From: a virus | Direction: 5' to 3' (one strand) | IMG/VR virus record: IMGVR_UViG_3300005253_000186 | Coordinates: 20,458 to 84,457 of that record | DNA: 64,000 nucleotides | Shown here: one piece after another, positions 8,909-34,071 of the stretch | How positions within the stretch are numbered: the first letter of the stretch is position 1 | Layout: every line of letters starts with the position of its first letter | The notes under the pieces: generated by a model | Told to the model about the DNA's origin: nothing | Databases searched by the model: none | The model's input: the letters and a program-made list of their open reading frames with translations, nothing else | Position numbers and translations under genes: made by a program

Positions 8909-9009
8909 GTGGCCTCCGATCTAAGATAATGTCTTCACTCTTCTTATACCTAAAAAAGAGGGCCGAGACCTCCGAAGAAGTCCCGGCCTGAACATAACTG
9001 TAGAAGAAA

Positions 9010-9101
9010 TGGCAGAGGACAAGAGAATCGAACTCTCAGACCGTATTTCAGGCCAATTGCTTAGCAAGCAATCCCAGCGAACCAGTATCTGGCTATCCTC
9101 T
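9010..9101 (-). tRNA. tRNA-Ser(GCT)
   Basis: cloverleaf, long variable arm, TTCGA T-loop, encoded CCA. Confidence 0.9.
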
Positions 9102-9106
9102 CTTCA

Positions 9107-9433
9107 TTATCTCCAGGTCCTGAGCGGGTAAAGCGCGTCGATCTTTTTGCGAGCTCTTCTGTGCGACTTGAAGCGTTCGACCTCGGCAGGCTTCTGGCCG
9201 TGCTGAAGGAGAAGCTTTCCCCCGCCTCTCGACATAAGACCTCCTCTCGAGTACTCAATCGGCGTCTTGGCGACCCAGTCATCCCCCTCCTTGTAGATCA
9301 GGGCGCCATCGAATCTCACATACATGTTCTTGCTGATGCGCTCCCAGTCTTTCCTGGGCTTGTGACCGACCTTCTTTTCGAGTAGAGACTTCCTACCTCC
9401 TCTTGCCCATGGCGGCATAGATAATGAAATCAT
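9107..9433 (-). CDS. hypothetical basic protein
   Basis: GGAGG RBS. Confidence 0.55.
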   Translation of the reverse strand: MISLSMPPWARGGRKSLLEKKVGHKPRKDWERISKNMYVRFDGALIYKEGDDWVAKTPIEYSRGGLMSRGGGKLLLQHGQKPAEVERFKSHRRARKKIDALYPLRTWR

Positions 9434-9434
9434 A

Positions 9435-9878
9435 TTACCTCCCTGTTGAACCGAACCCCGCGTCCCCCCTGGACTCGTTCTCGGGCTTATCTTCGACCTG
9501 TGCGAGGAAAATCTTGTCGAGCTTGAACGGCACCATCTGGGCGATCCTGTCTCCGACCTTATACCGGAAAGGCTGGGTGCCGAAGTTAAGCAGAATCACC
9601 CTGATCTCACCAGTGTAATCCTGGTCAACAGTTCCAGGCGCATTCATGACGAACACGCCTTGCTTGGCAGCAAGTCCGCTCCTGGACCTGATCTGGACCT
9701 CAAACCCAGACTCTATGCCAAGATGAATTCCGGTCGGCACAACTCCCCATGACATGGGGCCAATCGCGCCGCCTTCGCATGCGTACAGGTCAAAACCTGA
9801 ATCCGTCGGATTCGACTTGGTCGGCATCTGCGCATCCTCGTGCGCGAGGTATATCTGCAACGTTGCCGGGTGTTCCAT
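9435..9878 (-). CDS. dut: dUTP diphosphatase (trimeric dUTPase)
   Basis: motifs SGFDL, RSGLA, GTVDQDYTGE, IAQ, RGDAGFGSTG. Confidence 0.95.
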   Translation of the reverse strand: MEHPATLQIYLAHEDAQMPTKSNPTDSGFDLYACEGGAIGPMSWGVVPTGIHLGIESGFEVQIRSRSGLAAKQGVFVMNAPGTVDQDYTGEIRVILLNFGTQPFRYKVGDRIAQMVPFKLDKIFLAQVEDKPENESRGDAGFGSTGR

Positions 9879-9894
9879 CTGTTTCTCCTGAAAA

Positions 9895-9980
9895 TGGCGG
9901 AGAGCGGAAGATTCGAACTCCACCCCTCTCGGGGCCACCTGTGTTCCAAACAGGGCCAGCTCCTCGCTGGTTCACTCTCC
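9895..9980 (-). tRNA. tRNA-Ser(GGA)
   Basis: cloverleaf, long variable arm, CCA. Confidence 0.9.
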
Positions 9981-11398
9981 ATCTTTGGTGTACAAGTACA
10001 ATAGCAGTCCAGCCCCGAATGATCCAGCGCCCCACTTCTCTGAGAGTATCCGTTTTGTCTCTGACCACGCAATGATTCTAACCACGTAGTTATCTTGCGT
10101 CGTCGCCAGGCCCCAGATCGGGCGGCTGGGCTTGCCCCCGTCAGGATAATATCGGATCATGGCGCAGCCTCCACGGAGAGAAGGTTCCCCTCATAGTTCC
10201 CCTCATAGTCCCTCTCCGTGGCGTAGAAGTATACCAGGATGCCAGCGCCAACGGAACCATTGTTCCAGGCCTCCCATTTTCTCCAGGCCCATGGGTCTCG
10301 GACTGTGATTATCCCTGAAGCCTCCTTTTCTGCCTTCAAATACTGGCGCGCCTCTTTGAGCATCTTTATATCGGGCTCCCCATCGTCATCCACCACGATC
10401 ATAGGTCGCCCGTCGTAGGAAAGAGCTTCCGTTTGGACGCCATTGCAGGCAGCAAATATCGCCTCTTTGTAGTTGCCCCCGGATCCGTGGAATCCAAAGA
10501 AGACAAGCCCTGCCGTGGCTAGTTTTTCGCGATCTTCATACATCGCGTAGTTGGCCTCTTCGACCGATACCTCTATCCAGGTTTCTTCTTCCTGTTCTAC
10601 TGCATCGTACCAATCCTCACCCATGGCTGAGCAGAATTTTGGTTCATCAGACTTTCGGAATGTTATGTACAGCGAACAACGGTCTCCCATGACTAGGCCT
10701 CCTGTGCTTCATGGCTAGGAATACAGATACAACAGAAGTCCAGCTCCGAGAGATCCTTTGTTCCATCTCCGCAAAAGCTTCTTCACCAAATCTCCGTACT
10801 TCATGGACCTGGCCATCGTGAGATAGTCTGCGGTCGGTATTCTGCTCATAGCCGTTCCTCCCGACCGCAAAGGAATAACATGATCCCATCTCCTAGCGAA
10901 GATTCGTGGTTCCACCTTAGGAGAATTCTCCAGTACAAAAGATCCTGCTTTTCTATCTCGCTTATCGCCCGATACTCGTGCTCTAGCTCGGCCTGGTAGA
11001 CACGAAGCTTTTCCATTTCCTCGACTTCGTCGTAGGCGCCGTCCCACGCGGGCTTTGGCTCTTCTGGCTTACGTGGTAGATCCCAGTCTAGGTCCATCAG
11101 ATCTCACCGTACAAAAACAGAAAAATACCGGCGCCAATAGATCCGTGCCACCACCTGTTCTTCCACAAAGAGACAGTGTTCCCATAGCCGTATGCTTCAC
11201 GCCAAGCGGTGAATTCCTTGCTATCAAGATCAAGCAGCGAGTCTCTCATAGTGCCTTCCTCCAGATAAACAGAGCGATTCCGGCCCCTATAGACCTGCTG
11301 CTCCTCCAATGTTGCCGGAGCATTCTTATTTGAAGGCGAACGATAGCGTCGGCCTCTGGATCTGTCATAGAGCGGATCATGTTCATCGTAAGTTCCAT
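9972..11398 (-). CDS. array of 6 small paralogues with C-terminal W..xS[ILVF]G[AD]G[IL]xx[YF] motif (9972-10160, 10157-10690, 10715-10849, 10846-11097, 11097-11249, 11246-11398)
   Basis: WGAGSFGAGLLLYLY, WNNGSVGAGILVYFY, WNKGSLGAGLLLYLY, WNHESSLGDGIMLFL, WHGSIGAGIFLFLY, WRSSRSIGAGIALFI; mostly translationally coupled. Confidence 0.75.
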
Positions 11399-11413
11399 TG
11401 GAATCTCCGCAGA

Positions 11414-11499
11414 TGGCGGAAGCAGTGGGACTCGAACCCACAAGGCAGTTACGCCCACTTGTTTTCAAGACAAGCCCCTCGTCCAGCCGGTCTACTTCC
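11414..11499 (-). tRNA. tRNA-Ser(TGA)
   Basis: cloverleaf, long variable arm, CCA. Confidence 0.9.
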
Positions 11500-14356
11500 T
11501 AGAACTTTCCACTCAGGATATGGTACTGTCCACACTTAAGGCAGCAAGGCTTCCTGACGTTCGGAACCAGCATCATGATATTCTCGCATCTCTTGCAGAT
11601 CATAGCCACTCCTATGCCGTAAGGCGCGTCCATGTGGATGATTGGATACGGCTCATACAACCCGTCTAGGTACCTGCTTATACCGTCTCCCAGGTTCTTC
11701 ATTCTGGATCATCTCCGCTTCATCGCTGGGACCACAATAGCCAGCTTGCCGCATCCAATGCAAATAAAAGCATGCGGCCCCTTTGAATGCATCCTATGCC
11801 CATTCGGGGCGTTGCATCGTGGACACCTTTGATTCTGACCTTCGATTTCGACGTGCGGATCTTCGTCGTACATCCCCCTCAGGAATACCCAAATCCTGTA
11901 CCCAATTGTCACGTGGTTTGGCATCAGCGCCTGCCCCCCTTCAGGACGACGGTGTTTACCCCATGGCAGTGGCCGCAGTGTATTTCGGTGCAGATCTTCT
12001 CAAGCCAGGAAGTTGTATTAAGCTCTCGGCAATAGGCGCACAGCCAGTGCCTCCCGCTTGTCCAGGGATTCGTGATTTTCGCGTCAGGATTAACTGCTCG
12101 TACCGCCTCGACCACTGGCCATTCGCCCCATCTCGACAGGAATCGTGAGATTCTGCCCCCGATTGTCCATTTGTAGTCCGTGTGATCCATCAGTTCCGCT
12201 CTCTCCCGCCTATGCAGACGATGTGTCCAGCGTCGCACTCGTGACAGCTAGTGCGGTACGGGTTCGTATAGGTTACCGCGGCAAGTCCATCCATATGGAG
12301 GAACCCGCAGGATACGCAGCGCCAGGCCCTCCGGTAGTCGAAGACAGTGCGGACGACGTAGCTCTCATTAAAATCTCCTCTACGTCCGATAAAGCTCGTT
12401 ATCCTGAATCCGAGGCTCATTTGCCGTGCCTCCTCTTGCGCGGTGTCGAGATGTAGGTGAACCCGCACTCAATGTTCGAGCATGAGAGAACAAGCGGCTG
12501 CGGCCTGTGCTTGTGCTCCACTTTGATGGTCCCGCATTGTGGGCACTTGAACAGGCCCCTGTGTTCGATTATGGGACGCTGTCTGTAGGTCCCCCGGTCG
12601 CCCAGGAATAGCTTCATCTTAAGTCCGAGGCTCATCCCTTCTCCTTCAGGCGAATCAGAGAACCGCATTTATCGCACATGTAATTGCCGTCGCGGAACTT
12701 TTCATCAAAGTTGACCAAGGCGTAATCGATTAAACACCGAGGGCATGGCGGATATGCAAACACCATTCCGCTGGTCACTTCAACTATGTACTGGCCCCTC
12801 GTAAAGGCGAAGATAATCCGTCCGATATTCATTCTATCGTCTCCGCGAGTATCACCAGATAAGATTGACCGCAACCGAGACAGAAAAATTCTTTCGGAGT
12901 TTTGGCTGGGAACCTCACATAGACGCCTCCCATTCCCGTGGGACACACAATGCACTCGTATCTAACGGCTTCCAACTTCTCCCTCTTGGTGATCATTGTG
13001 TCTCTCTGCTGGATAAACGCGAACATCCTAATCCCAAGATTCATTCCGGCCTCCTGAAAATTAAAATGTACGGTTGCCAGCATCTGTCACACGCGCCTTC
13101 TGCGGTGCGGCCTCCATTCCAGTCTACATTAACTATTCCTTCTACGCATTTCGAGCATTGGTACTTGTCCTCTACAAGTCGATGCTCCTTATTGAGGATC
13201 AGCGTCTCCTTGTCCTGGAGGAATGCGTGGATCATGCCACCAACAGTCACGGGACACCTGTTACAATATGAGGTTGCCCGCATCCTCGGCAGTGAGCCCT
13301 GACTGTCTTCCCGCCTATCCCTGGCATGGTCCTTTGCCAGTCTACTCGAATCCTCCCGCCGCAATCGTCGCAGTCATAGGTTTTTATATACGGCAGTCCG
13401 ATGTTTTTGAATTTCAACACACTTGGCGTCTTCCTGAGAAGGAAAACGTAGATCATGTATCCAAGAGTCATTTACGTCTCCCTTTCCCTTATTCGGTAGA
13501 CCCGGCGACAGTAGTCGCAGGCACAGTGAATGGGGAAGATTTTGTCCCAATCTACTTCAATCCTCCCTATGGTACAAATGCGGCAAGCGTAAGATTCTCC
13601 CCGAATAAGAGGGGCTATGTGTACATACGGCAATTGTTCGTTTATGAACGCGAATATCTGGTAGCCAAGAGTAATTGGATAGCCAAGAGCCATACCTATC
13701 TCCTAGGTCTAAGGAGCTCATGTCTTCTAAACAGGTACCTTTTCCCGCACGTACATGTAGTGTAGTGCGGCATTTCCCTCTGGCGCCCAACTCTCTGGTC
13801 GCAGTAGATGCACTTGGTCCAAGAGGTAGAGGTGAACACGATGACCACGTCCTGGTCAAAGCTGTATATGTTGTACACGAGATCGAAAATCATGTGTCCG
13901 AGGGTCATTGTAATCTCCCGGAATCAAGGATGCTAAGGCGCCCCATGATGTATCTCTTTCCGCATTGGCAGGTCAGAAGGTGGGGATTGAGAAACAGGGG
14001 GCGTAGAACATGGGCGCATCTAGCGCAAACGAACTCCCAGGAGCCGGGCATAATCATGGCGTAACTGGATTCACACCTGTAGTAGATGAAATTGAAGATC
14101 GTATCTCCGAGCGTCATGCCCTGACCCCCTCTCGTGCGGTGTTCATCCATCGCCTTCTCCTGAACGCGAACCTCTTCCCGCACTCGCATGATGTGAAGTG
14201 GGGAGCGTTTTCTAGGCGTAGAATCTTTTTTCCGCATCGGGGACACGTAGTCCCATGCAGTGCCTCGCGCAGTCCGGAGTGGAATATGATGGTCAAATCT
14301 TCGTCGAAGTCGTACATGTTGTAGATGAGCTGATAGATCATCGTGCCGATGGTCAT
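11499..14356 (-). CDS. array of 13 small Zn-ribbon paralogues with N-terminal [TSN][LIV]Gxx[IM]xx[FLY] motif (11499-11702, 11709-11924, 11924-12190, 12190-12420, 12417-12635, 12632-12832, 12829-13044, 13041-13250, 13247-13471, 13472-13693, 13696-13908, 13905-14117, 14114-14356)
   Basis: each 65-90 aa with two Cys pairs; many ATGA stop/start overlaps; starts reassigned using RBS and the shared motif. Confidence 0.8.
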
Positions 14357-14372
14357 GTGAGACTCCTAAGAA

Positions 14373-14460
14373 TGGCGGGGTGTGCGAGACTCGAACTCGC
14401 AAGGCATGTTTCAGCCCACACCGTCTCGAACGGTGATCTTCATCCAGCCAGATACACCCC
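14373..14460 (-). tRNA. tRNA-Ser(CGA)
   Basis: cloverleaf, long variable arm, CCA. Confidence 0.9.
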
Positions 14461-14476
14461 TAGATGCCATCTCTAC

Positions 14477-15037
14477 TTATCCCACATATTTGCGCCATAC
14501 AGACCTGCTCTTGACCTTGATCTGGAGCATGGCCATTGGGTCAGGCCTGACTGGCTTCCTGCGCAGTTTCATGCCGGCCTCGCCTGGTGTTTGGTCGGCC
14601 TTGTCAGAATTGCATGGCGAGCAGGACGTGACACAGTTGATCCAGGAGGTCCTTCCGCCCTGGGCCTTGGGCGTCACGTGGTCGATGGTCACGCCTTCCC
14701 GCCCAGGCTGGCTGCCGCAGTACTGGCAGGTGTACTTGTCGCGCTTGAAGATTGAGTACTTGGAGAAGTTCCTGCCCATCTTGGGTATCTCCCCGTACTC
14801 CGTCAGAACGATGGCCTCGGGGACCTGAACGTCATAGCTGGTGGTCTTGACGAACGGCATGCCAGGATCGACTCCGCGCTCAACCCAGGAGCCAAACCTA
14901 TGCGTGCTGTAATCCCTGCCGTCGACGGCCACTGCCTTCCCGCAGTACATCTTCACCATCGCTTCGCTGGCCGGCTCTACGCTAACTGGCCTCCATCCTT
15001 TATTAAGAATGAGCACGGGTTCGTCCAGGGGTCTCAT
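14477..15037 (-). CDS. HNH endonuclease (McrA-like)
   Basis: VLILNKGWRP; IFKRDKYTCQYCG; TIDHVTPKAQGG; NCVTSCSPCNSDK. Confidence 0.9.
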   Translation of the reverse strand: MRPLDEPVLILNKGWRPVSVEPASEAMVKMYCGKAVAVDGRDYSTHRFGSWVERGVDPGMPFVKTTSYDVQVPEAIVLTEYGEIPKMGRNFSKYSIFKRDKYTCQYCGSQPGREGVTIDHVTPKAQGGRTSWINCVTSCSPCNSDKADQTPGEAGMKLRRKPVRPDPMAMLQIKVKSRSVWRKYVG

Positions 15038-15186
15038 CTTGCCCTCCTTTCTTCGGGTTTATATATAGAGGTCCGTCGAGCCTTTTCTCGCGTCGGCAAA
15101 GCATCGTCCGCGGTCCACGTCCCGGTTCGGGGGCTGCCTTTTTACAGGGCCCGCAGGCTACGTCTTTTTTCAGTTCCGGCCGGACC

Positions 15187-15462
15187 TCAATGTGTCGGTT
15201 CTCCTCCGCAGCCTCCGTCTCCGATGTTCTTGCGATACCACTTGGCAAATTCATCATAGTTGATCCAGTGCACATAATCATGCTTGCACTTGGGGCAGAC
15301 AGTCTGCCCGGGGCCACCTTCCGTAATGTACTCCACGGGATCAGTGTCTGGCTTTGGCAGGATCCGGTAGTCTTCCCATTTGAATTTACAGTCGTAGCAC
15401 TCGTACCAGCAAGGCGGAAATGTCTTCTGGGTCTGCTGTTTCGCCCTCTTTCTCTTAGCCAT
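15187..15462 (-). CDS. Zn-ribbon protein
   Basis: YECYDC...CPKCKH. Confidence 0.6.
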   Translation of the reverse strand: MAKRKRAKQQTQKTFPPCWYECYDCKFKWEDYRILPKPDTDPVEYITEGGPGQTVCPKCKHDYVHWINYDEFAKWYRKNIGDGGCGGEPTH

Positions 15463-15674
15463 TACTCGGCGTCGTGTATTGGTGCGCCGCCACACGCCAT
15501 GGATATTACTCGCTGGGTCATGACTTGAATATCAATCTTCTCGCTCGAATTTGTCAGATGGTGTTGCAGCAAGTCGTAGATTCTGCCGAACTCGTCTCCT
15601 GGATCATCTTTTGGGGTTCCATGGTCTTCGAATTGAAACATAGTCGTTTTTTCGACAATTACTTCGATCTTCAT
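15462..15674 (-). CDS. hypothetical protein
   Basis: start reassigned to MKIEVI with GGAG. Confidence 0.55.
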   Translation of the reverse strand: MKIEVIVEKTTMFQFEDHGTPKDDPGDEFGRIYDLLQHHLTNSSEKIDIQVMTQRVISMACGGAPIHDAE

Positions 15675-15694
15675 ATTATCTCCCTGGACGTGGT

Positions 15695-15779
15695 TGGTGA
15701 GGGCGGTGGGATTCGAACCCACAAGGCCGAAGCCAGCCGGTCTTAAACCGGCCGTGTCTGCCAATTGCACCACGCCCCC
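15695..15779 (-). tRNA. tRNA-Leu(TAA)
   Basis: cloverleaf, long variable arm, CCA. Confidence 0.92.
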
Positions 15780-15798
15780 AGCGTCTTTGCCTGTTAGA

Positions 15799-15987
15799 CT
15801 ACTGGCCCTTCTTTCCAGTGGCTTCCGTCGTGTGCGTTGTAAACAAGTGAGCCTCAACCGCCGAAATCGCTTGGTGCTGCTCCTTCATCATGTCAATGAG
15901 AGTCTCGTCTCCATCCGTAAGGCTCTCGTCCAGAGCGTTCTCGCGAGCGAGATCCAGGACGACTGCCAAAGCTTCTTCAAAGGTCAT
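15799..15987 (-). CDS. hypothetical acidic protein
   Basis: AAGGAG RBS. Confidence 0.55.
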   Translation of the reverse strand: MTFEEALAVVLDLARENALDESLTDGDETLIDMMKEQHQAISAVEAHLFTTHTTEATGKKGQ

Positions 15988-16010
15988 CGCAATCTCCTTA
16001 TGGTTAAAAA

Positions 16011-16094
16011 TGGTGGGGCGAGACGGAGTCGAACCGCCAAAGCCGAAGCGTCTCGTTTACAGCGAGGTGGGCTCTCCACATGCCCAGTCGCCCC
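16011..16094 (-). tRNA. tRNA-Tyr(GTA)
   Basis: cloverleaf, long variable arm, CCA. Confidence 0.9.
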
Positions 16095-16096
16095 AT

Positions 16097-16393
16097 GAAG
16101 CCCAGGAGGGTCGTAGCATCTACCCGGCAAGCAAGCCGGTGCACATCACCCCAATACGGGCAGACGAGCTGTAGGCTGCCCCCTGGACTTCGGTTTGGGT
16201 GGCCTCCGGGTCATAGCATCGCTTCCACTGGTTTCCCTCGCCGGGAAGAGCTTCTGCGGCTACCCTTCGGCCATAGTTAATAAGTAACAGTCTCGGGATC
16301 ATGGCATCGCGGCATTGGACCTTTCAAGGATCCAATGTTACCCTGGCTCCACGGGGTACAATTCCCGTTGCCTGGCGGCTCCCCCGAGACTGT
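16097..16393 (-). ncRNA. three tandem structured RNAs sharing an AU-bulged helix (16097-16191, 16200-16273, 16287-16393)
   Basis: each closed by a terminal stem and containing AGC-CNN paired to NNG-AT-GCY-AYGA. Confidence 0.65.
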
Positions 16394-16396
16394 ATC

Positions 16397-16475
16397 TGGT
16401 GTCCATGGAGGGAGTCGAACCCTCAAAATCTCCTGCCCCTCAAGCAGGCGGCTTTGCCAGTTTGCCCACACGGAC
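16397..16475 (-). tRNA. tRNA-Leu(GAG), short variable arm
   Basis: cloverleaf, CCA. Confidence 0.88.
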
Positions 16476-16504
16476 ATTCTTTCTCCAACTAGACGAAGTG
16501 GCTT

Positions 16505-16957
16505 TTATTCGACCGTGATTGAAAAGACACAAGGGTCGCTTTCATTCCCTTGGCTGTCTATTAAAATGACCGTGACAGAAGGGTCGGCGGCGTGTAGCCA
16601 TGGATCATAGCCATTCTGCACCCAAATTAAATCGCCAGAGTCAATATCAACAGATGGCCAGTTGTCGAACATTGGCACAGTAACGTTCACTATAAATTCA
16701 GTACCACCTTGAATATTTGTGGCCCATCCAGGAATAATATAAACTGGGCTAGTTGCGCTCTGTGCGACTGTAATATCGCCTCCGCAGGTGAATGCTGGAG
16801 TTCCTGGTTCCGGAGTTGGCTCCGGTTCGGGGGCTGGGCCTGGGGCTGAAGGTTTTTGATGTGAATGACTATCCCACGGAGGATGTGCTAAGGGATATTT
16901 CTCACAACCAGTGAGAAGCACAAATCCGATTAACATCGTTAGCGTTTTCATTCTCAT
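16505..16957 (-). CDS. putative lipoprotein
   Basis: signal peptide with LLTG|C lipobox, Pro-rich linker; visibly lower GC than flanks. Confidence 0.7.
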   Translation of the reverse strand: MRMKTLTMLIGFVLLTGCEKYPLAHPPWDSHSHQKPSAPGPAPEPEPTPEPGTPAFTCGGDITVAQSATSPVYIIPGWATNIQGGTEFIVNVTVPMFDNWPSVDIDSGDLIWVQNGYDPWLHAADPSVTVILIDSQGNESDPCVFSITVE

Positions 16958-17012
16958 CTTTTTTCCTTAGGCTGGTGGCCAGGCTAATCTAGGGACGGCT
17001 TCGCCACACCCG

Positions 17013-26722: not shown

Positions 26723-29700
26723 TTATGCTCTCTTGATTCTCTTCTCCAGATCCCTGAGGTCCTTTCTGATCTTCCGCTTCTTCTCGAACTTCTCCCAGAC
26801 AGATCCTGGAGTCTTCATCATGAGATCCTCTGCCTGATCGGCCAGATCCTGGAGCGCCCAGAACAGATCCTCCCTTACGGGAATGTGCTGGAACTCCGCG
26901 AACTCAAGGCACTCAAGGTCCTCCTCGGAGATTGTCATGTACGGATCAGCCAGTTTCGCAATTAACTTGTTCAGCGCCACGAACTTGTTGCACATGTTGA
27001 TGAGATGAATCATATTCGGCCCTCGTAGATCATGTCTCTGACCTTGCTCATTACTTCGACCATGCCGCCGAATATTTCGTAGTTGTCGAGATCCGTTACG
27101 GTGATCGTTCCGAGGCGATAGGATGCCCTGGCGATGCGGCCCAGCATAATGCCCTGTCTAGATCTGTCCACATCCGAGATCCCCGTCTTGATCAGATATT
27201 TTTCTATCGACCTGGCGAACAGGTCGTGACCTCTGCTGCTTCGATTAACGTGCAGATCATGGCAGCATCCCCGCGAAGTTGACCCTTTTATTGAAGAAAC
27301 TCTCCACGTCCCATAGATGAGCTTCTATCGCAACGAGCAAGGCAGATATGGCTGGGTCCGGATCGCTGCCACGCATAACCGCAAGGCCGTTCCCAAAGAA
27401 GGTTTCAAGGCATGTATGTTTCAGAGAATTCCCGCGGACGCCATCGATGTACGCATCGATAGCGATCCTGTATCGTTCTACGACACAGATGGCGCTCAAT
27501 AATCTGCATATCATGACTTCTCCCTAGGTATTGGTGGAGTCGAGCGGAATCGAACCGCCGTCTCTTGGCTGCCGACCAAGCGTGCTACCATTGTCACCAC
27601 GACCCCATCGCCGATATTTTTTACGCGGCTCGGCCTAGAAGGACTTTCACCTCCACGCCGCAGTATTTGGTGGACCCGGCGGGAGTCGAACCCGCGACCT
27701 CCTGCGTGCAAAGCAGGTGCTCTCCCAATTGAGCTACAGGCCCTTATACCGGATATACCTCCGCTCGAAGTGCCACTGGATCTCTTTGGCCCAGTTGTAG
27801 CACCCATGATATGTCTGAATGATTTGCTCTGAGTTGGGCAGGCCACTATTATACAGCCATCTGACCTGATGGGCGTGCAGATTACACGCCTTTTTATTGA
27901 GGGCGGAGCCGGCCATGTCAGCGCTCAAATCCATATTTGCAATCTCGTAGAGAATGTCTGAACATCTCATCAGGGCCCCAATCATGATCACACTCCCGAC
28001 TTGATCTGCGCCTCGTAGTCCTTGTCGTAGATCGTGTTCATCTGGGTCTCCTCGATCATTTTCTTCCTCTTACTGAAGTGGGTCGACAGGCGCCTCAGTA
28101 TAATAAGGCTTTCGCGAAGGTCTGACATTAGATCGGGATCTGAATGCTTCCGTTGCATCCCGCGGAGATGATAGAGATCTCTCTGCCATAAGTAAATCTC
28201 GTCGACACGGAAGCGGCAGTAGTCGAAGTCTAGACTTTCCTTGTCGAACTGTATGACCCGGTGAAGGGCGTTCGCCTCAGAGATCATGGTTCCAATCATC
28301 CGAACTTCTTCCATTGTCCCGGCCTCCATCTCCTTCTTGCCTTCCGCTCCATGATTGCGAGCCGATACATGATCGATGAGGACTCGTGGTCTCCGAGCAC
28401 AGAGAGATCCGACCCAGCCGACTCGAATACGTCCACCCTGTACGACCAGTTGTAATCACCCCTGCCGGACATGATAAAGTTGACATGGTCCAGGACGGAG
28501 ATGATCTTCAGCAGTCTCAAGATCATTGCATCATCCTCCCGAGCTCATCTTCGGCGTCGAGGTTGTGGATCGCCTGCATTGGAAGTCCAAGGGCCCTGCC
28601 CGCCGCCCTCGCTGCAACATCTCCAGACTCGCGGTCGCCAAGCATATCGAGCTCGGCTGAGATTCTCGTTAGGCTTCCGGCCATCGATCCACTGTGCCAC
28701 TTGGGCCAGGCGCTTAGGAAATTCTGGAGATCGTCCAGATGGCCTATGATTTCCAGCAATGAGCAGATCATGGCACGACCAGAACGGTCTTCAGACTGCC
28801 CAGATAGGGCACGCTGTAGACGACGTTCGGCCCCATGGTCTCCCTTCCCTTAAAAGGGAGCATGATAGACATGCTCCTTGCCCTGCCGGCGATGCTAGCG
28901 GAGTCGTAGTCTTCCCGCGCTATAAGCTCGTCTTCAACCCGGCCAAAGGCGTGGTATCTTTTCTGCGTGTTGCAGTGAGTCCAGTTGTCGATCCAGTACT
29001 GGAGTTCGTCCAGCAGCTCAATGGTCCTGAGAAGATTGCAGATCATCCTCTCGTCCTCCTCTCGTAGAGCGCCTCTCCAATGATCGACAGGCGCAGCAAG
29101 ACTATTCTCGACTCCCGATCTCCGAAGCCCCGTATCGATCGTACCATATTGGTGAGCCTATGATGCATGGTCGTGATGTATGCCTCGAATCTGTCCATGG
29201 CGAATCGGGCATCACCCCTGTACAGAAGGATCTCCAAGCGAACCGGAATGTCTTCCGAGAGTTTTTCGAGAAATCTTGCTTCGGCCATGTGTGCGCAGAT
29301 CATCGTATTGCCGCTCCTGCCTGATGAAGAATTGCTAGCGCGTGGGCGGAGACCGTCTTGCCAGACTCTTTGAATCCAGGTTTCCTTGACATTTCTTCTC
29401 CCTTCAACCACTTCGCCATGAGCGTATCTGCCGTCCACCGGGACAACCACGCCCCTTCTCTCTTCTGACAGGAGTAGGCGATGAAGTCCGCGATTATTTC
29501 CAGCTCGTTGACTTGCTCTATCTCTTCCAGTAGCGGGCAGATCATTTAGACTCCTCCTCCGACAATCTGTCCTAGTTCGCTGTACGTCGCATTCGCCTTG
29601 AGATCTCTTACGCGCCGGAAGGTCTCCAAAATGAACCTCGCCATTTCAGTGATGGCACGGTAGGAGTTTGAGTCGCATACAACCGTGCACTCGCATCGCG

Positions 29701-30695
29701 TTATTAGATCGGCCAGCGCATCTTCGGCCTCGTGGAGGTCAATGCTGCTCATATTTGGGCATTCGAGTGACAGCCGGTTCATCGCATCGCTTACTCGTTC
29801 TAGGCAGTCTGAAGTATCCAGCAGATTGACTAGGAGAATCATGTCGTGCTCCTTAACCAAGTTACCGCCATCTAGATCTCCCGATTTCTCCAAAAAATTG
29901 CGACGATGTTATCCATCGAGCTCTCGGCGCGCCTGATGAATTCTTTGGTTTCGTTAAAGACCACATAGTCTGCCCTGTCCTTGCATGTCATTCTATGTAT
30001 ACTCCAGAACGATTCATTGAAGAAGTCCCGCATTTCGTCGACCAGCCCCATGTGGCTTCTGGCGCGCCAGCGGACTATGAAGTAGCTCATCTTCGCAGTT
30101 ATGTCGTCGACGATCTCAATCGACTCAAGGATAGGGCAGATCATATGGATCCCCCTCTTGTGTCGTAGACGAAAATGATTCGATCGACACGGCACAGCCG
30201 ATCTCCTCCAGCGTCGTGCAGTCGTGCCGCGGATGCAGAAAGTGAGCCTCTTCGATCTTTCGGCTCCCGCATATCTTGAACAACCTCTGGGCGTCCTGGG
30301 TCAGGTCGAAGGCATCGTCGAAATCGTTATTCCAGACCCCCTGCGCACCAAAGCTTTGGTGTCGCTTGAAGAGTTCTGTTCTGATAGTTTTCAGATTGAT
30401 TAGGTCCCCCATTAAGAACATCTCGGTTATTCTACTGAAAATGTCGGCCGTTTCAAGCAGTAGGCGTAGTCCCATGCGCCCTCCTGACCTTGTCTCCTCC
30501 GTGGTTCATTACCGCGGCGACCAGGCGAACCGACATGGCGTAGGTCTCTATCAGCTCCCTGGTCTGGTGCTTCGATACCTGAATACCTAGGCCGGTCGAA
30601 ATAGCGCTTAAGTCGACGAAGTTTCCCATGGAAAATAGGTTGCGCATATTTTCGGTGATGGCCGCCATCCTGAGGCAGTGGCAAAAGGGTGACAT
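26723..30695 (-). CDS. array of ~14 small helical paralogues with MI[C/L]xL[LI]xxxxx[LV][DNE]x[LI] N-terminus (26723-27013, 27010-27260 frameshifted, 27257-27514, 27734-27991, 27988-28299, 28296-28526, 28523-28771, 28768-29046, 29043-29303, 29300-29545, 29546-29842, 29872-30144, 30125-30475, 30453-30695)
   Basis: MICRLLSAI, MICSLLEII, MICNLLRTI, MICAHMAEA, MICPLLEEI, MICPILESI, MILRLLKII; ATGA overlaps; two tRNA-Ala genes embedded. Confidence 0.75.
27010..27260 (-). pseudogene. frameshifted member of the MIC-leader family
   Basis: MICTLIEAAEV in one frame continues as DLFARSIEKYLIKTG...YEGRI* in another frame; both ends overlap neighbours as ATGA. Confidence 0.7.
27532..27606 (-). tRNA. tRNA-Ala(GGC)
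   Basis: cloverleaf, G3:U70, CCA. Confidence 0.9.
27668..27743 (-). tRNA. tRNA-Ala(TGC)
   Basis: cloverleaf, G3:U70, CCA. Confidence 0.95.
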
Positions 30696-33711: not shown

Positions 33712-34071
33712 TGGTGGAGGTGCCCGGATTCGAACCGGGGTCTTGAAATGCATCCAAATGCGCGTTTACGTGCGTAGAAGGTTCTGATCGCCTTCGGCCT
33801 TTGGTCAACAGATTCCAGCAAGATCGCCTAGGCCTACACGGCGAATTATGTCTCAATCACCTGAACGCCGAACGCAGATGATCCAGTCGTAGTTCGTCCG
33901 ATCTCCAGCTACGACGACAACCTCGCCGGGATCGGGACTACCTATTCCTAGGCAGCCATGCGGTAGCCGTTGTCGGCACCTAATTTGTCATCGGATTTTT
34001 ACGTGGCCTTCCGATGAACCACGGCACGAAGCAACATTCTTCCTCATCCAATCGATTCCTATATCACCCCC
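33712..34071 (-). ncRNA. ssrA: tmRNA
   Basis: GGGGGTG...CACCTCC-ACCA acceptor with G3:U70, T-arm, tag ORF 33948-33977 ADNGYRMAA*. Confidence 0.92.

What the first reader, a model, noticed from the sequence alone, without database searches (positions are those of the whole stretch)
11499..14356. Thirteen tandem, translationally coupled Zn-ribbon miniproteins between two tRNA-Ser genes
N-termini: NLGDGISRYL, TIGYRIWVFL, TIGGRISRFL, SLGFRITSFI, SLGLKMKLFL, NIGRIIFAFT, NLGIRMFAFI, TVGGMIHAFL, TLGYMIYVFL, TLGYQIFAFI, TLGHMIFDLV, TLGDTIFNFI, TIGTMIYQLI. Each is followed by two Cys pairs. Nearby genes are most alike (13696 and 14114 share LxYNxYxFDxD), implying local duplication and fast divergence as in gene accordions under arms-race selection. 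The ORF track overextends many of the starts.
Basis: partly seen in the sequence, partly recalled or inferred. Interest (0 to 1): 0.7.

Follow-up and report, generated by a model that had tools for sequence, protein, structure and literature searches.

The report
Phage zinc-ribbon miniprotein gene array
An uncultured marine-sediment phage carries thirteen back-to-back genes for old, strongly diverged copies of one tiny zinc-binding protein that all begin with the same short helix; they are most likely a set of specific binding modules, but their targets are unknown.

Summary
Thirteen minus-strand genes (66-88 aa) fill 11499-14356 between tRNA-Ser(cga) and tRNA-Ser(tga). All carry an N-terminal (T/S/N)(L/I/V)GxxIxxF(L/I) motif and four Cys. 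Nine of 12 junctions overlap (7 ATGA/GTGA, 2 TGATG).

Leave-one-out profiles recover 13 of 13, though Z11 and Z13 only weakly. No Pfam, PHROG or NCBIfam family fits. Relatives occur only in a small clade of uncultured marine-sediment phages.

Similarity falls with distance along the array, so local duplication is supported. The "gene accordion / fast arms-race divergence" reading is not:
- The copies are old.
- Each forms its own orthologue group shared with a relative that has 10 copies in another order.
- dN/dS is 0.10-0.54, close to that of neighbouring genes.

The fold is a helix plus a beta-sheet zinc ribbon (AF2 pLDDT 75), with only weak CSL/RPB9-like matches. Twelve of 13 proteins are basic. 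The helix motif is conserved at the protein level and recurs at N- or C-termini of three other small-protein families in this phage. I therefore read it as a portable docking element on variable binders, which is inferred and untested.

This is a further case of a lineage-specific zinc-ribbon expansion in a large phage (Iyer 2021). The scan has noted comparable arrays, of other families, on other phage DNA.

The parts
14373..14460 (-). tRNA-Ser (anticodon cga), upstream boundary. Its encoded CCA end lies 16 nt before the Z01 start, and that spacer holds an AGGAG.
14114..14356 (-). Z01, 80 aa, starts MTIGTMIYQLI, CxxC...CxC. Closest paralogue is Z03.
   Evidence: LOO E 1.4e-10
13905..14117 (-). 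Z02, 70 aa, starts MTLGDTIFNFI. ATGA overlap with Z01. The ORF listing overextends it to 165 aa.
   Evidence: LOO E 3e-9
13696..13908 (-). Z03, 70 aa, starts MTLGHMIFDLV. ATGA overlap with Z02.
   Evidence: LOO E 3.3e-9
13472..13693 (-). Z04, 73 aa. The motif is preceded by a 7-residue extension that repeats its beginning (10-nt direct repeat).
   Evidence: (LOO E 9.6e-7)
13247..13471 (-). Z05, 74 aa, starts MTLGYMIYVFL. This is the member that was folded.
   Evidence: (LOO E 1.6e-10)
13041..13250 (-). Z06, 69 aa, GTG start in a GTGA overlap. The only member with net negative charge.
   Evidence: (LOO E 1.7e-8)
12829..13044 (-). Z07, 71 aa, starts MNLGIRMFAFI. Lies in the mosaic patch: the strain variant has a 5-aa indel.
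   Evidence: (LOO E 3e-10)
12632..12832 (-). Z08, 66 aa, starts MNIGRIIFAFT.
   Evidence: (LOO E 2.3e-4)
12417..12635 (-). Z09, 72 aa, starts MSLGLKMKLFL. Second Cys pair is Cx4C. Net charge +11.
   Evidence: (LOO E 1.1e-4)
12190..12420 (-). Z10, 76 aa, starts MSLGFRITSFI.
   Evidence: LOO E 2.2e-7
11924..12190 (-). Z11, 88 aa. The motif follows an 8-residue lead (..KW-TIGGRISRFL). Weakest family link, but it has the most orthologues.
   Evidence: (LOO E 6.2e-3)
11709..11924 (-). Z12, 71 aa from the ATG. It may instead start at the GTG at 11912, directly before TIGYRIW, where the L003 orthologue has its ATG.
   Evidence: (LOO E 4.6e-10)
11499..11702 (-). Z13, 67 aa, starts MKNLGDGISRYL. Weak family link. 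Its TAG stop shares its last base with nucleotide 1 of the tRNA.
   Evidence: (LOO E 1.1e-3)
11414..11499 (-). tRNA-Ser (anticodon tga), downstream boundary.
9972..11398 (-). Outside the finding: six Cys-poor small ORFs that end in W..GS[LIV]GAGI..[FY]-type versions of the same motif.
22355..24631 (-). Outside the finding: eight tandem CxxC...CPxC proteins in which the motif ([ST][LF]Gxx[IL]xN[FL][ML]) follows the second Cys pair. It is predicted helical there too.

Best explanation
The block is a lineage-specific expansion of one clade-restricted miniprotein. The protein has an N-terminal hydrophobic helix, a beta-strand linker and a four-cysteine zinc ribbon.

The 13 genes lie in one 2.86-kb stretch bounded tightly by two tRNA-Ser genes. 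I found no promoter- or terminator-like excess. They are therefore probably transcribed with the tRNA operon, released by tRNA processing and translated by coupling. All of this is inferred from sequence.

The array grew by local tandem duplication long ago. It now evolves by slow gain, loss, reordering and patchy recombination, with each copy under purifying selection. This part is shown by comparison with relatives.

Mechanism I commit to (inferred): the proteins are non-enzymatic binding modules. The variable linker, the hairpin between the two Cys knuckles and the mostly basic tail give each copy its own target, either nucleic acid or protein. The constant terminal helix also sits on three unrelated small-protein families of this phage, at either terminus. 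I read it as a portable docking element that ties all of them to one common partner.
For: Family and anatomy.

No known family:
- 0 of 13 reach a Pfam cut-off.
- PHROGs gives 2 of 13 marginal hits.
- NCBIfam gives 4 single marginal hits.
- tblastn of Z07 against 50,697 phage records finds nothing.

Clade-restricted: 16 hits in the 5.8-billion-protein search. Twenty-two short full-length hits are among the 150 listed of 630 in the 1.84-billion representative library. The other 128 listed are long multi-repeat proteins that match only the Cys part; I looked at 2 of them.

Old copies under constraint.

Local duplication. Copy number and order differ in L003.

Fold: AF2 of Z05 with 41 sequences gives pLDDT 74.7 and pTM 0.56, with helix 3-11 and five strands.

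Charge: 12 of 13 proteins have net positive charge, pI 7.6-10.3.

The helix motif is a peptide, not an RNA signal. Information per codon position is 1.15, 1.05 and 0.51 bits for positions 1, 2 and 3, and all four Gly codons are used.

The motif is portable:
- Outside the array there are 12 motif hits at 3.5 bits or more, against 2.9 +/- 1.8 in 30 shuffles.
- These hits sit at the termini of other paralogue families.
- The best local profile-profile match between the Z family and the 22355-24631 family is exactly the motif (16 columns, E 8e-4), not the zinc ribbon.
- The motif is predicted helical in both contexts.

No excess of promoter- or terminator-like sites in 9000-17000: 6 found against 5.9 expected, and 7 against 6.3.
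Against: - No expression, zinc or binding data exist. No RNA run holds the stretch.
- The tools gave no coordinates or PAE, so I could not see whether the helix packs on the protein's own sheet. If it does, it may simply be the hydrophobic core. The helix is very hydrophobic (mean H 0.62) and always present.
- Motif enrichment outside the array is modest; one of 30 shuffles reached 9 hits.
- The Z-versus-Y profile match has only 25% probability.
- Z11 and Z13 are tied to the family mainly by architecture. Their hhalign probabilities are at most 21% and 7%.
- No candidate partner was identified.
- Structural matches are below the level the tool calls meaningful (best Z 4.4).
Confidence: 0.45

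Rival explanations
1. Independent small DNA- or RNA-binding regulators. The helix is only the structural core of the fold, and each copy works alone as a specific transcription factor, an RNA binder (for example for the phage's tRNAs or small RNAs) or a structural nucleic-acid-binding protein. Iyer et al. proposed this for the zinc-ribbon expansion of Bacillus phage G.
For: - 12 of 13 proteins are basic, several with Arg/Lys tails.
- The zinc-ribbon part resembles RPB9/A12.2, NrdR and TFIIS-type ribbons in fold searches, though weakly.
- There is one marginal PHROG hit to the Com RNA-binding zinc finger.
- The array lies in a tRNA/tmRNA island.
- The Iyer 2021 passage was read.
Against: - The same motif on Cys-free and acidic families at the other terminus is hard to explain as a fold core.
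- No DNA or RNA target was sought or found.
- All similarity to known nucleic-acid binders is below threshold.
Confidence: 0.25
2. Virion cargo. The terminal helix is a capsid- or scaffold-targeting peptide that loads these miniproteins into the head for co-injection. This would resemble the T4 capsid targeting sequence on the diverse, basic internal proteins, or the cargo-loading peptide of encapsulins.
For: - T4 internal proteins are diverse and basic, and share only a 10-19-residue N-terminal targeting peptide (passages read in PMC3012670 and PMC9026906).
- The encapsulin consensus peptide DGSLGIGSLKG, with its key L-G-I, is quoted in PMC7925596. It resembles the GS[LIV]GAGI versions at 9972-11398.
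- The motif is strictly terminal.
- The phage has an HK97-type major head protein hit.
Against: - The resemblance covers only a few residues.
- The motif is predicted helical here, while I recall the encapsulin peptide as bound in extended form. That point is recalled, not checked.
- There is no conserved cleavage site after the motif.
- No encapsulin-type shell (PF04454) is in the contig.
- The genes sit in the tRNA operon, not the head module.
- There is no virion proteome.
Confidence: 0.12
3. Membrane-targeting amphipathic helix. The motif anchors the miniproteins to the inner face of the host membrane.
For: - Terminal position and helix prediction.
- Mean hydrophobic moment of 0.40 against 0.27 for other 12-mers of the same proteins.
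- Very hydrophobic versions occur in the 9972-11398 family.
Against: - 6 of 13 Z helices have net charge 0 or -1.
- The invariant Gly and the fixed [ST]-[LI]-G..I..F pattern point to a defined pocket rather than a lipid surface.
- The segment is too short to span a membrane.
Confidence: 0.08
4. One reading: a gene accordion, meaning recent amplification and fast diversification under an arms race, e.g. as anti-defence proteins.
For: - Neighbours are most alike.
- Copy number differs between relatives, 13 against 10.
- A variable patch over Z05-Z08 lies between otherwise 99-100% identical strains. Z05 has 5 of 5 changes non-synonymous, and Z06 has pN 0.067 against pS 0.046. The patch was seen again in contigs of a second study.
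Against: - The duplications predate the split of the compared phages.
- Paralogues are 14-44% identical.
- dN/dS is 0.10-0.54, like neighbouring genes.
- The patch has sharp borders and includes an indel replacement, as recombination gives.
- The counts in Z05 and Z06 are too small to show dN greater than dS.
Confidence: 0.06
5. Precursor peptides of a ribosomally made natural product, with a conserved leader and a Cys-rich core.
For: Tandem small genes with a conserved N-terminus and variable Cys-containing rest.
Against: - The fixed CxxC...CxxC spacing and a predicted folded sheet.
- No radical-SAM gene in the 84-kb contig, which is only about 51% of the genome.
- The conserved part is 10 residues, shorter than usual leaders. 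That comparison is my own knowledge.
Confidence: 0.02

Closest known systems
[quoted passage not shown]
   Same: A large phage carries many diverged copies of a small zinc-ribbon protein with no assigned function. The authors suggest specific transcription factors or structural DNA-binding proteins.
   Different: - No sequence link was found: tblastn of Z07 against the phage collection gave nothing (only one member was tried).
- Here the copies lie in one coupled operon between two tRNA genes.
- They carry a conserved N-terminal helix that is shared with other families.
- The paper's supplement (S1.4), which may describe the phage G family further, was not seen.
T4 internal proteins with a capsid targeting sequence (PMC3012670, PMC9026906; passages read)
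   Same: Small, mostly basic, highly diverse proteins that share only a roughly 10-residue terminal peptide.
   Different: - In T4 the peptide is N-terminal only and is cut off by the prohead protease.
- Here the motif is also C-terminal in other families, no cleavage site is evident, and packaging is untested.
Encapsulin cargo-targeting peptides (consensus DGSLGIGSLKG; PMC7925596, passages read)
   Same: A short terminal peptide with Ser-Leu-Gly and a following hydrophobic residue, carried by unrelated cargo proteins and binding an HK97-fold shell.
   Different: - Only a few residues match.
- The motif is predicted helical here.
- No encapsulin shell gene is present.
CSL-type zinc finger (Dph3/Kti11, Dph4) and RPB9/TFIIS-type zinc ribbons
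   Same: - The five best VIA-align rows are all CSL-type proteins, Z 3.3-4.4.
- The Atlas structure search also puts Dph4 first, TM 0.57.
- Foldseek's best plausible rows are RNA polymerase I A12.2 and RPB9.
   Different: - All scores are below the level the tools call meaningful.
- No Pfam zf-CSL hit at E up to 1.
- No C-S-L signature in the second knuckle.
Small phage zinc-finger regulators and inhibitors (Lar, Ogr/Delta, Com)
   Same: Size and two Cys pairs. Sub-threshold Pfam or PHROG hits for single members.
   Different: Every hit is far below the curated cut-off and covers only a Cys knuckle. None of these families has the N-terminal helix. That last point is my own knowledge, not tested.

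Membership tests
Zinc-ribbon superfamily (generic) | Two Cys pairs (knuckles) separated by a beta-hairpin | tested here: met
   Four invariant Cys columns in 13 of 13. Spacing is CxxC plus CxxC in 9, CxC in 3 and Cx4C in 1. Strands flank both knuckles in the AF2 model.
Zinc-ribbon superfamily (generic) | Binds one zinc ion | not testable with these tools
   Needs metal analysis of purified protein.
Any curated family (Pfam, PHROGs, NCBIfam) | Score at or above the curated cut-off | tested here: not met
   Pfam: 0 of 13. PHROGs: 2 of 13 at E 0.002-0.004 only. NCBIfam: 4 families hit by one member each, best E 7e-5, and unrelated to each other.
Phage G zinc-ribbon expansion (Iyer 2021) | Sequence homology to the phage G family | tested here: inconclusive
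   tblastn of one member (Z07) against 50,697 phage records found no match at E up to 1. The other 12 members and a profile were not tried.
Phage G zinc-ribbon expansion (Iyer 2021) | Many diverged copies of one small zinc ribbon in a large phage | tested here: met
   13 copies here. The contig is 84 kb at an estimated 51% completeness.
CSL zinc finger (PF05207) | Pfam match or C-S-L signature | tested here: not met
   No PF05207 row at E up to 1 for any of the 13. No CSL in the second knuckle.
CSL zinc finger (PF05207) | Same fold | tested here: inconclusive
   The top 5 VIA rows are CSL proteins, but only at Z 3.3-4.4. Atlas TM is 0.57.
Gene accordion (recent tandem amplification) | Near-identical copies that arose after the split from close relatives | tested here: not met
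   Paralogues are 14-44% identical. Each groups with its own orthologues from other phages.
Gene accordion (recent tandem amplification) | Copy number varies between close relatives | tested here: met
   13 genes in the window and in L002, 10 in L003.
T4-type capsid-targeted internal proteins | Terminal targeting peptide removed by the prohead protease; protein present in virions | not testable with these tools
   Only the analogy (shared roughly 10-residue terminal peptide on diverse basic proteins) can be seen.
Encapsulin cargo | Encapsulin (Linocin_M18) shell gene nearby | tested here: not met
   PF04454 was not found in the 84-kb contig, while the control genomes were hit. The head protein has no Pfam hit.
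Translationally coupled operon | Overlapping stop and start codons with upstream Shine-Dalgarno sites | tested here: met
   9 of 12 junctions overlap. 11 of 13 starts have GGAG or GAGG upstream. The same ATGA overlaps occur in L003.
Translationally coupled operon | Downstream translation depends on upstream translation | not testable with these tools
   Needs reporter fusions with upstream stop mutations.

The most novel reading that the evidence does not exclude
The (S/T)(L/I)GxxIxxF(L/I) helix is a phage-wide address tag. About 30 otherwise unrelated miniproteins of four families carry it at either terminus and use it to dock to one hub. The boldest version is that the hub is the inside of the HK97-type head or its scaffold. 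The phage would then load a diversified set of zinc-ribbon binders into the virion and inject them with the DNA. That would be a cargo-loading system analogous to the T4 capsid targeting sequence and to encapsulin targeting peptides.
Probability: 0.12. Interest if true: 0.8.

Novelty: new variant of a known kind. Interest (0 to 1): 0.48.

Why it matters
Large phages repeatedly expand families of tiny zinc-ribbon proteins, and nobody knows what any of them does. This array is a clean, well-bounded case:
- 13 intact old copies, each kept by selection.
- One coupled operon cut out by two tRNAs.
- Orthologues in relatives that allow comparison.

The constant terminal helix is shared with three other small-protein families of the same phage. 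That gives a concrete experimental handle: find what the helix binds, and the role of about 30 orphan genes may follow. If the partner is the capsid or a host hub, it would show how phages build modular repertoires of small effectors.

Tried and rejected
- **Phage collection, DNA.** Megablast of 11400-14500 against the phage collection found no match.
- **The search for related loci with the 13-way alignment.** I then used an alignment of Z11 orthologues (A2). It found nothing in viral contigs and nothing in genome contigs, and two loci in metagenome contigs.
- **The look-up of encoding contigs.** Closed. The 187,673-bp and 94,544-bp contigs named could therefore not be fetched, and arrays on the short contigs of other relatives could not be mapped. 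I only note that several hits share contig lengths.
- **Expression.** No RNA holder was listed for the stretch. All four runs laid were DNA contigs, so there is no evidence on expression.
- **Foldseek.** No match at E of 1e-3 or better against PDB or BFVD.
- **PDB sequence profile.** Only generic C4 fingers: GATA, eS27, eL43, Rpo12, L33.
- **ESM Atlas by features.** Unnamed clusters at 0.90, within the range that shuffled proteins reach.
- **Sliding clamp as possible hub.** Neither PF00712 nor PF09116 is in the contig; L002 and L003 were not held and were not searched. This says little for a half genome.
- **Radical SAM (PF04055) and encapsulin shell (PF04454).** Absent from the contig.
- **RNA-level explanation of the motif** (a junction signal). 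Rejected because wobble positions vary freely.
- **Positive selection in the Z05-Z08 patch.** The counts are too small and the borders are sharp, so I read it as recombination.
- **Pfam on head-module proteins and three other small ORFs.** No hit except a sub-threshold rubredoxin-like one.
- **Literature.** Search for tandem paralogous zinc-ribbon small proteins in phages (listing only) gave nothing relevant. A search for jumbo-phage lineage-specific expansions gave Iyer 2021. I found no paper on this family, but only these two searches bear on that. Supplements are closed, and Iyer's Supplementary S1.4 may hold more on the phage G family.
- **Known slips in my scripts.** The regex picked the wrong segment for Y3 and Y7. 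The region split for Z09 is wrong because of its Cx4C. Neither changes a conclusion.
Full report
**What is there.** The window is part of an 84,457-bp IMG/VR viral contig estimated at 51% complete. It has 54% G+C. It carries 32 tRNA genes and a tmRNA on the minus strand, and a weak hit to a major head protein family.

Between tRNA-Ser(cga) at 14373-14460 and tRNA-Ser(tga) at 11414-11499 lie 13 minus-strand genes of 66-88 codons. I call them Z01 to Z13 in the order of transcription.
- Of the 12 junctions, seven are ATGA or GTGA overlaps, two are TGATG overlaps, and three are gaps of 0, 2 and 6 nt.
- 11 of 13 starts have GGAG or GAGG within 20 nt upstream.
- The mechanical ORF list overextends seven starts.
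- The upstream tRNA ends 16 nt before the Z01 start, and that spacer holds AGGAG.
- The Z13 stop codon shares its last base with the first base of the downstream tRNA.
- A scan of 9000-17000 found no more promoter-like or terminator-like sites than shuffles give: 6 against 5.9, and 7 against 6.3.

So the block looks like a coupled polycistron cut out of a tRNA transcript. This is inferred: no RNA data exist for it.

**Is it one family?**
- The 13-way alignment has an invariant Gly at residue 4 and four invariant Cys columns.
- A profile built from 12 members scores the thirteenth above all 300 of its shuffles in 13 of 13 cases. E-values for a 1,714-ORF database are at most 1e-6 for nine members, and 1e-4 to 6e-3 for Z09, Z08, Z13 and Z11.
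- In a scan of all six frames of the contig the 13 ORFs score 48.7-76.5 bits and the next ORF 15.8 bits. This scan includes the training sequences.
- I enlarged eight subgroups with orthologues and compared them profile against profile. Ten of 28 pairs reach at least 50% probability, and they connect the groups of Z01-Z10 and Z12. The Z11 group reaches at most 21% and the Z13 group at most 7%.

Eleven members are therefore firmly homologous. Z11 and Z13 belong by architecture, position and a weak profile signal.

**Known families.**
- None of the 13 reaches a Pfam cut-off. The sub-threshold rows are a mix of generic zinc ribbons, and 5 of 13 have no row at all at E up to 1.
- PHROGs gives two marginal single hits, one to the Com zinc finger.
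- NCBIfam gives four unrelated single hits.
- A tblastn of Z07 against 50,697 phage records finds nothing.
- A PDB sequence profile search finds only generic C4 fingers.

**Relatives.**
- The 5.8-billion-protein search returned 16 proteins, all 69-95 aa.
- The exhaustive search of 1.84 billion representatives returned 630 proteins at E of 1e-3 or better. Among the 150 listed, 22 are short full-length members. Of the 20 I read, 18 begin with the motif; two have a longer called start.
- The other 128 listed are long proteins matched in many stretches over the Cys part only. The two I read are tandem CxxC-repeat proteins. I take these as pattern matches, not relatives.
- Ten further members are singletons on contigs of 1-5.6 kb.
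- The stretch is held by marine-sediment metagenome runs of two studies.

Two loci could be fetched. L002 is a near-identical strain and has the same 13 genes. L003 comes from a 136-kb contig and has 10 genes. Both arrays are flanked by the same two tRNA-Ser genes. The L003 order is Z02-like, Z01, Z07, Z08, a Z05/Z06-like gene, Z09, Z10, Z13, Z11, Z12, again with ATGA overlaps.

**How it evolves.**
- Local duplication is supported. Alignment score falls with distance in the array: Spearman -0.27, with 142 of 10,000 permutations as low. Adjacent pairs average 60.5 against 42.1, with 49 of 10,000 permutations as high. Eight of 13 genes have their best partner next door.
- The copies are old. In a 43-row tree (72 columns, so deep forks are unresolved) each paralogue groups with its own orthologues from other phages with strong support. 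Z03 branches outside the Z01 plus L003 pair, so that duplication predates the split.
- Against L003, dN/dS is 0.10-0.54 for nine pairs; two further pairs have saturated dS.
- Eleven neighbouring genes aligned over at least 75% of their length give 0.08-0.63. The array therefore evolves like the rest of the island.
- Against L002, nine genes differ by 0-2 nt. A patch over Z05-Z08 is diverged, with bins down to 72% identity in a 99-100% background. A second patch covers 10900-11500.
- The same variant, including a 144-nt stretch replaced by 159 nt in Z07, appears in contigs of the second study.
- The sharp borders and the indel point to recombination. The non-synonymous excess in Z05 (5 of 5) and Z06 rests on too few changes to count.

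This is birth-and-death with purifying selection, not a recent accordion.

**Fold.** AlphaFold2 on Z05 with 41 family sequences gives pLDDT 74.7 and pTM 0.56. The model has a helix at residues 3-11, which is the motif, and five strands.
- Foldseek finds nothing at E of 1e-3 or better in PDB or BFVD. The plausible weak rows are RNA polymerase A12.2/RPB9, NrdR, Lar and TFIIS-type ribbons covering about 40 residues.
- VIA-align against 48,161 chains puts five CSL-type zinc proteins (DESR1, Kti11 twice, Dph4, YBL071w-A) on top, but at Z 3.3-4.4. That is below what the tool treats as meaningful.
- The Atlas's own model also has Dph4 first, TM 0.57.

I take this as "a zinc ribbon inside a small sheet, with an extra helix" and nothing more.

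Twelve of 13 proteins have net positive charge.

**The helix motif.**
- Its conservation is at the protein level. Codon positions 1 and 2 carry 1.15 and 1.05 bits and position 3 carries 0.51, and all four Gly codons occur.
- In eight clear orthologue pairs the motif is 83% identical, against 69-74% for the other parts.
- It is not confined to this array. A motif-only profile finds 12 further hits at 3.5 bits or more in the contig, against 2.9 +/- 1.8 in shuffles (maximum 9 in 30 shuffles).

These further hits sit at protein termini in other paralogue sets:
- six Cys-poor ORFs at 9972-11398 that end in GS[LIV]GAGI-type versions;
- eight CxxC...CPxC proteins at 22355-24631, where the motif follows the second Cys pair;
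- four or five plus-strand, non-zinc proteins at contig positions 663-2716, with the motif at the N-terminus or, in one, the C-terminus.

The best local profile-profile match between the Z family and the 22355-24631 family is the motif itself (16 columns, E 8e-4, probability 25%), not the zinc ribbon. In a model of one of those proteins (pLDDT 64.9) the motif is again a helix, residues 62-75. That family is also confined to the same phage clade.

The helix is very hydrophobic (mean 0.62) and moderately amphipathic (0.40 against 0.27 background). It carries net charge 0 or -1 in six of 13 Z proteins, which argues against a simple membrane-binding role.

**Reading.**
- Shown: one old, clade-specific paralogue family; tight operon structure; local duplication; purifying selection; variable array content; a protein-level terminal motif shared with other families.
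- Inferred: co-transcription with the tRNAs, translational coupling, zinc binding, and function.

I commit to non-enzymatic binding modules, with a variable zinc-ribbon surface and basic tail for specificity and a portable terminal helix that docks to a common partner (confidence 0.45).

The main rival is that the helix is only the fold's core and the proteins act singly as nucleic-acid binders. Iyer et al. suggested this for the roughly 35-copy zinc-ribbon expansion in Bacillus phage G (passage read).

The boldest reading is a targeting tag for the virion. It is suggested by the T4 capsid targeting sequence on diverse basic internal proteins and by the encapsulin peptide consensus DGSLGIGSLKG. 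It rests on analogy only, and no encapsulin shell gene is present.

**Novelty.** The kind (lineage-specific expansions of zinc-ribbon miniproteins in large phages) is in print. This scan has noted comparable arrays of other families on other phage DNA, some with constant terminal tails (unchecked notes). New here are the family itself, its tRNA-bounded coupled operon and the helix shared across four families.

Noticed in passing
window 9972-11398 (minus strand): Six small, Cys-poor ORFs between tRNA-Ser(gga) and tRNA-Ser(tga) end in a Trp-rich stretch followed by GS[LIV]GAGI..[FY]-type versions of the same helix motif. This version resembles the encapsulin targeting-peptide consensus quoted in PMC7925596.
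   Followed up: partly
window 22355-24631 and 21300-21668 (minus strand): A second tandem family of eight CxxC...CPxC proteins, mostly acidic or neutral, carries the motif after the second Cys pair. It is predicted helical there. The family is confined to the same phage clade (12 hits).
   Followed up: partly
G000:C1:663-2716 (plus strand, upstream of the window): Four or five paralogous non-zinc proteins of 74-170 aa carry the motif at the N-terminus (e.g. M-TLGKKIFAFLG, M-SLGEMIMDF). One carries it at the C-terminus. Several end in a similar W..K.(R)..YL tail.
   Followed up: no
window 26723-30475 (minus strand): Another run of about ten small paralogous genes starts with a different conserved N-terminal helix (MIC.LL..I..LD type). 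The tRNA island seems to be a nursery of miniprotein families.
   Followed up: no
window 11499-11501; L003 10463-10470: The last gene of the array overlaps the 5' end of tRNA-Ser(tga), by 1 nt in the window and by 8 nt in L003. In L002 there is a 10-nt gap. RNase P cleavage would therefore remove the stop codon, and the phage encodes its own tmRNA (33712-34071). Whether this matters is open.
   Followed up: partly
window 13672-13693: Z04 starts with a 7-residue extension (ALGYPI) that repeats the beginning of its own motif (TLGYQI). It was made by a 10-nt direct repeat with a 21-nt period. The orthologue P0005 lacks it.
   Followed up: partly
window 12700-13200 and 10900-11500, compared with L002: Two sharply bounded divergent patches (bins down to 72% and 57% identity) lie in a background of 99-100% identity between two strains. 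The first patch was seen again in contigs of a second study. The second patch includes the tRNA-Ser(tga) gene.
   Followed up: partly
window 9010-14460: Four tRNA-Ser isoacceptors (gct, gga, tga, cga) follow each other, separated only by the small-protein arrays. L003 lacks the gga copy.
   Followed up: no
window 15187-15495 (minus strand): A 102-aa protein with two CxxC pairs ends in W..KNIGDGG, a degenerate C-terminal copy of the motif. It is 97% identical to its L003 orthologue.
   Followed up: no
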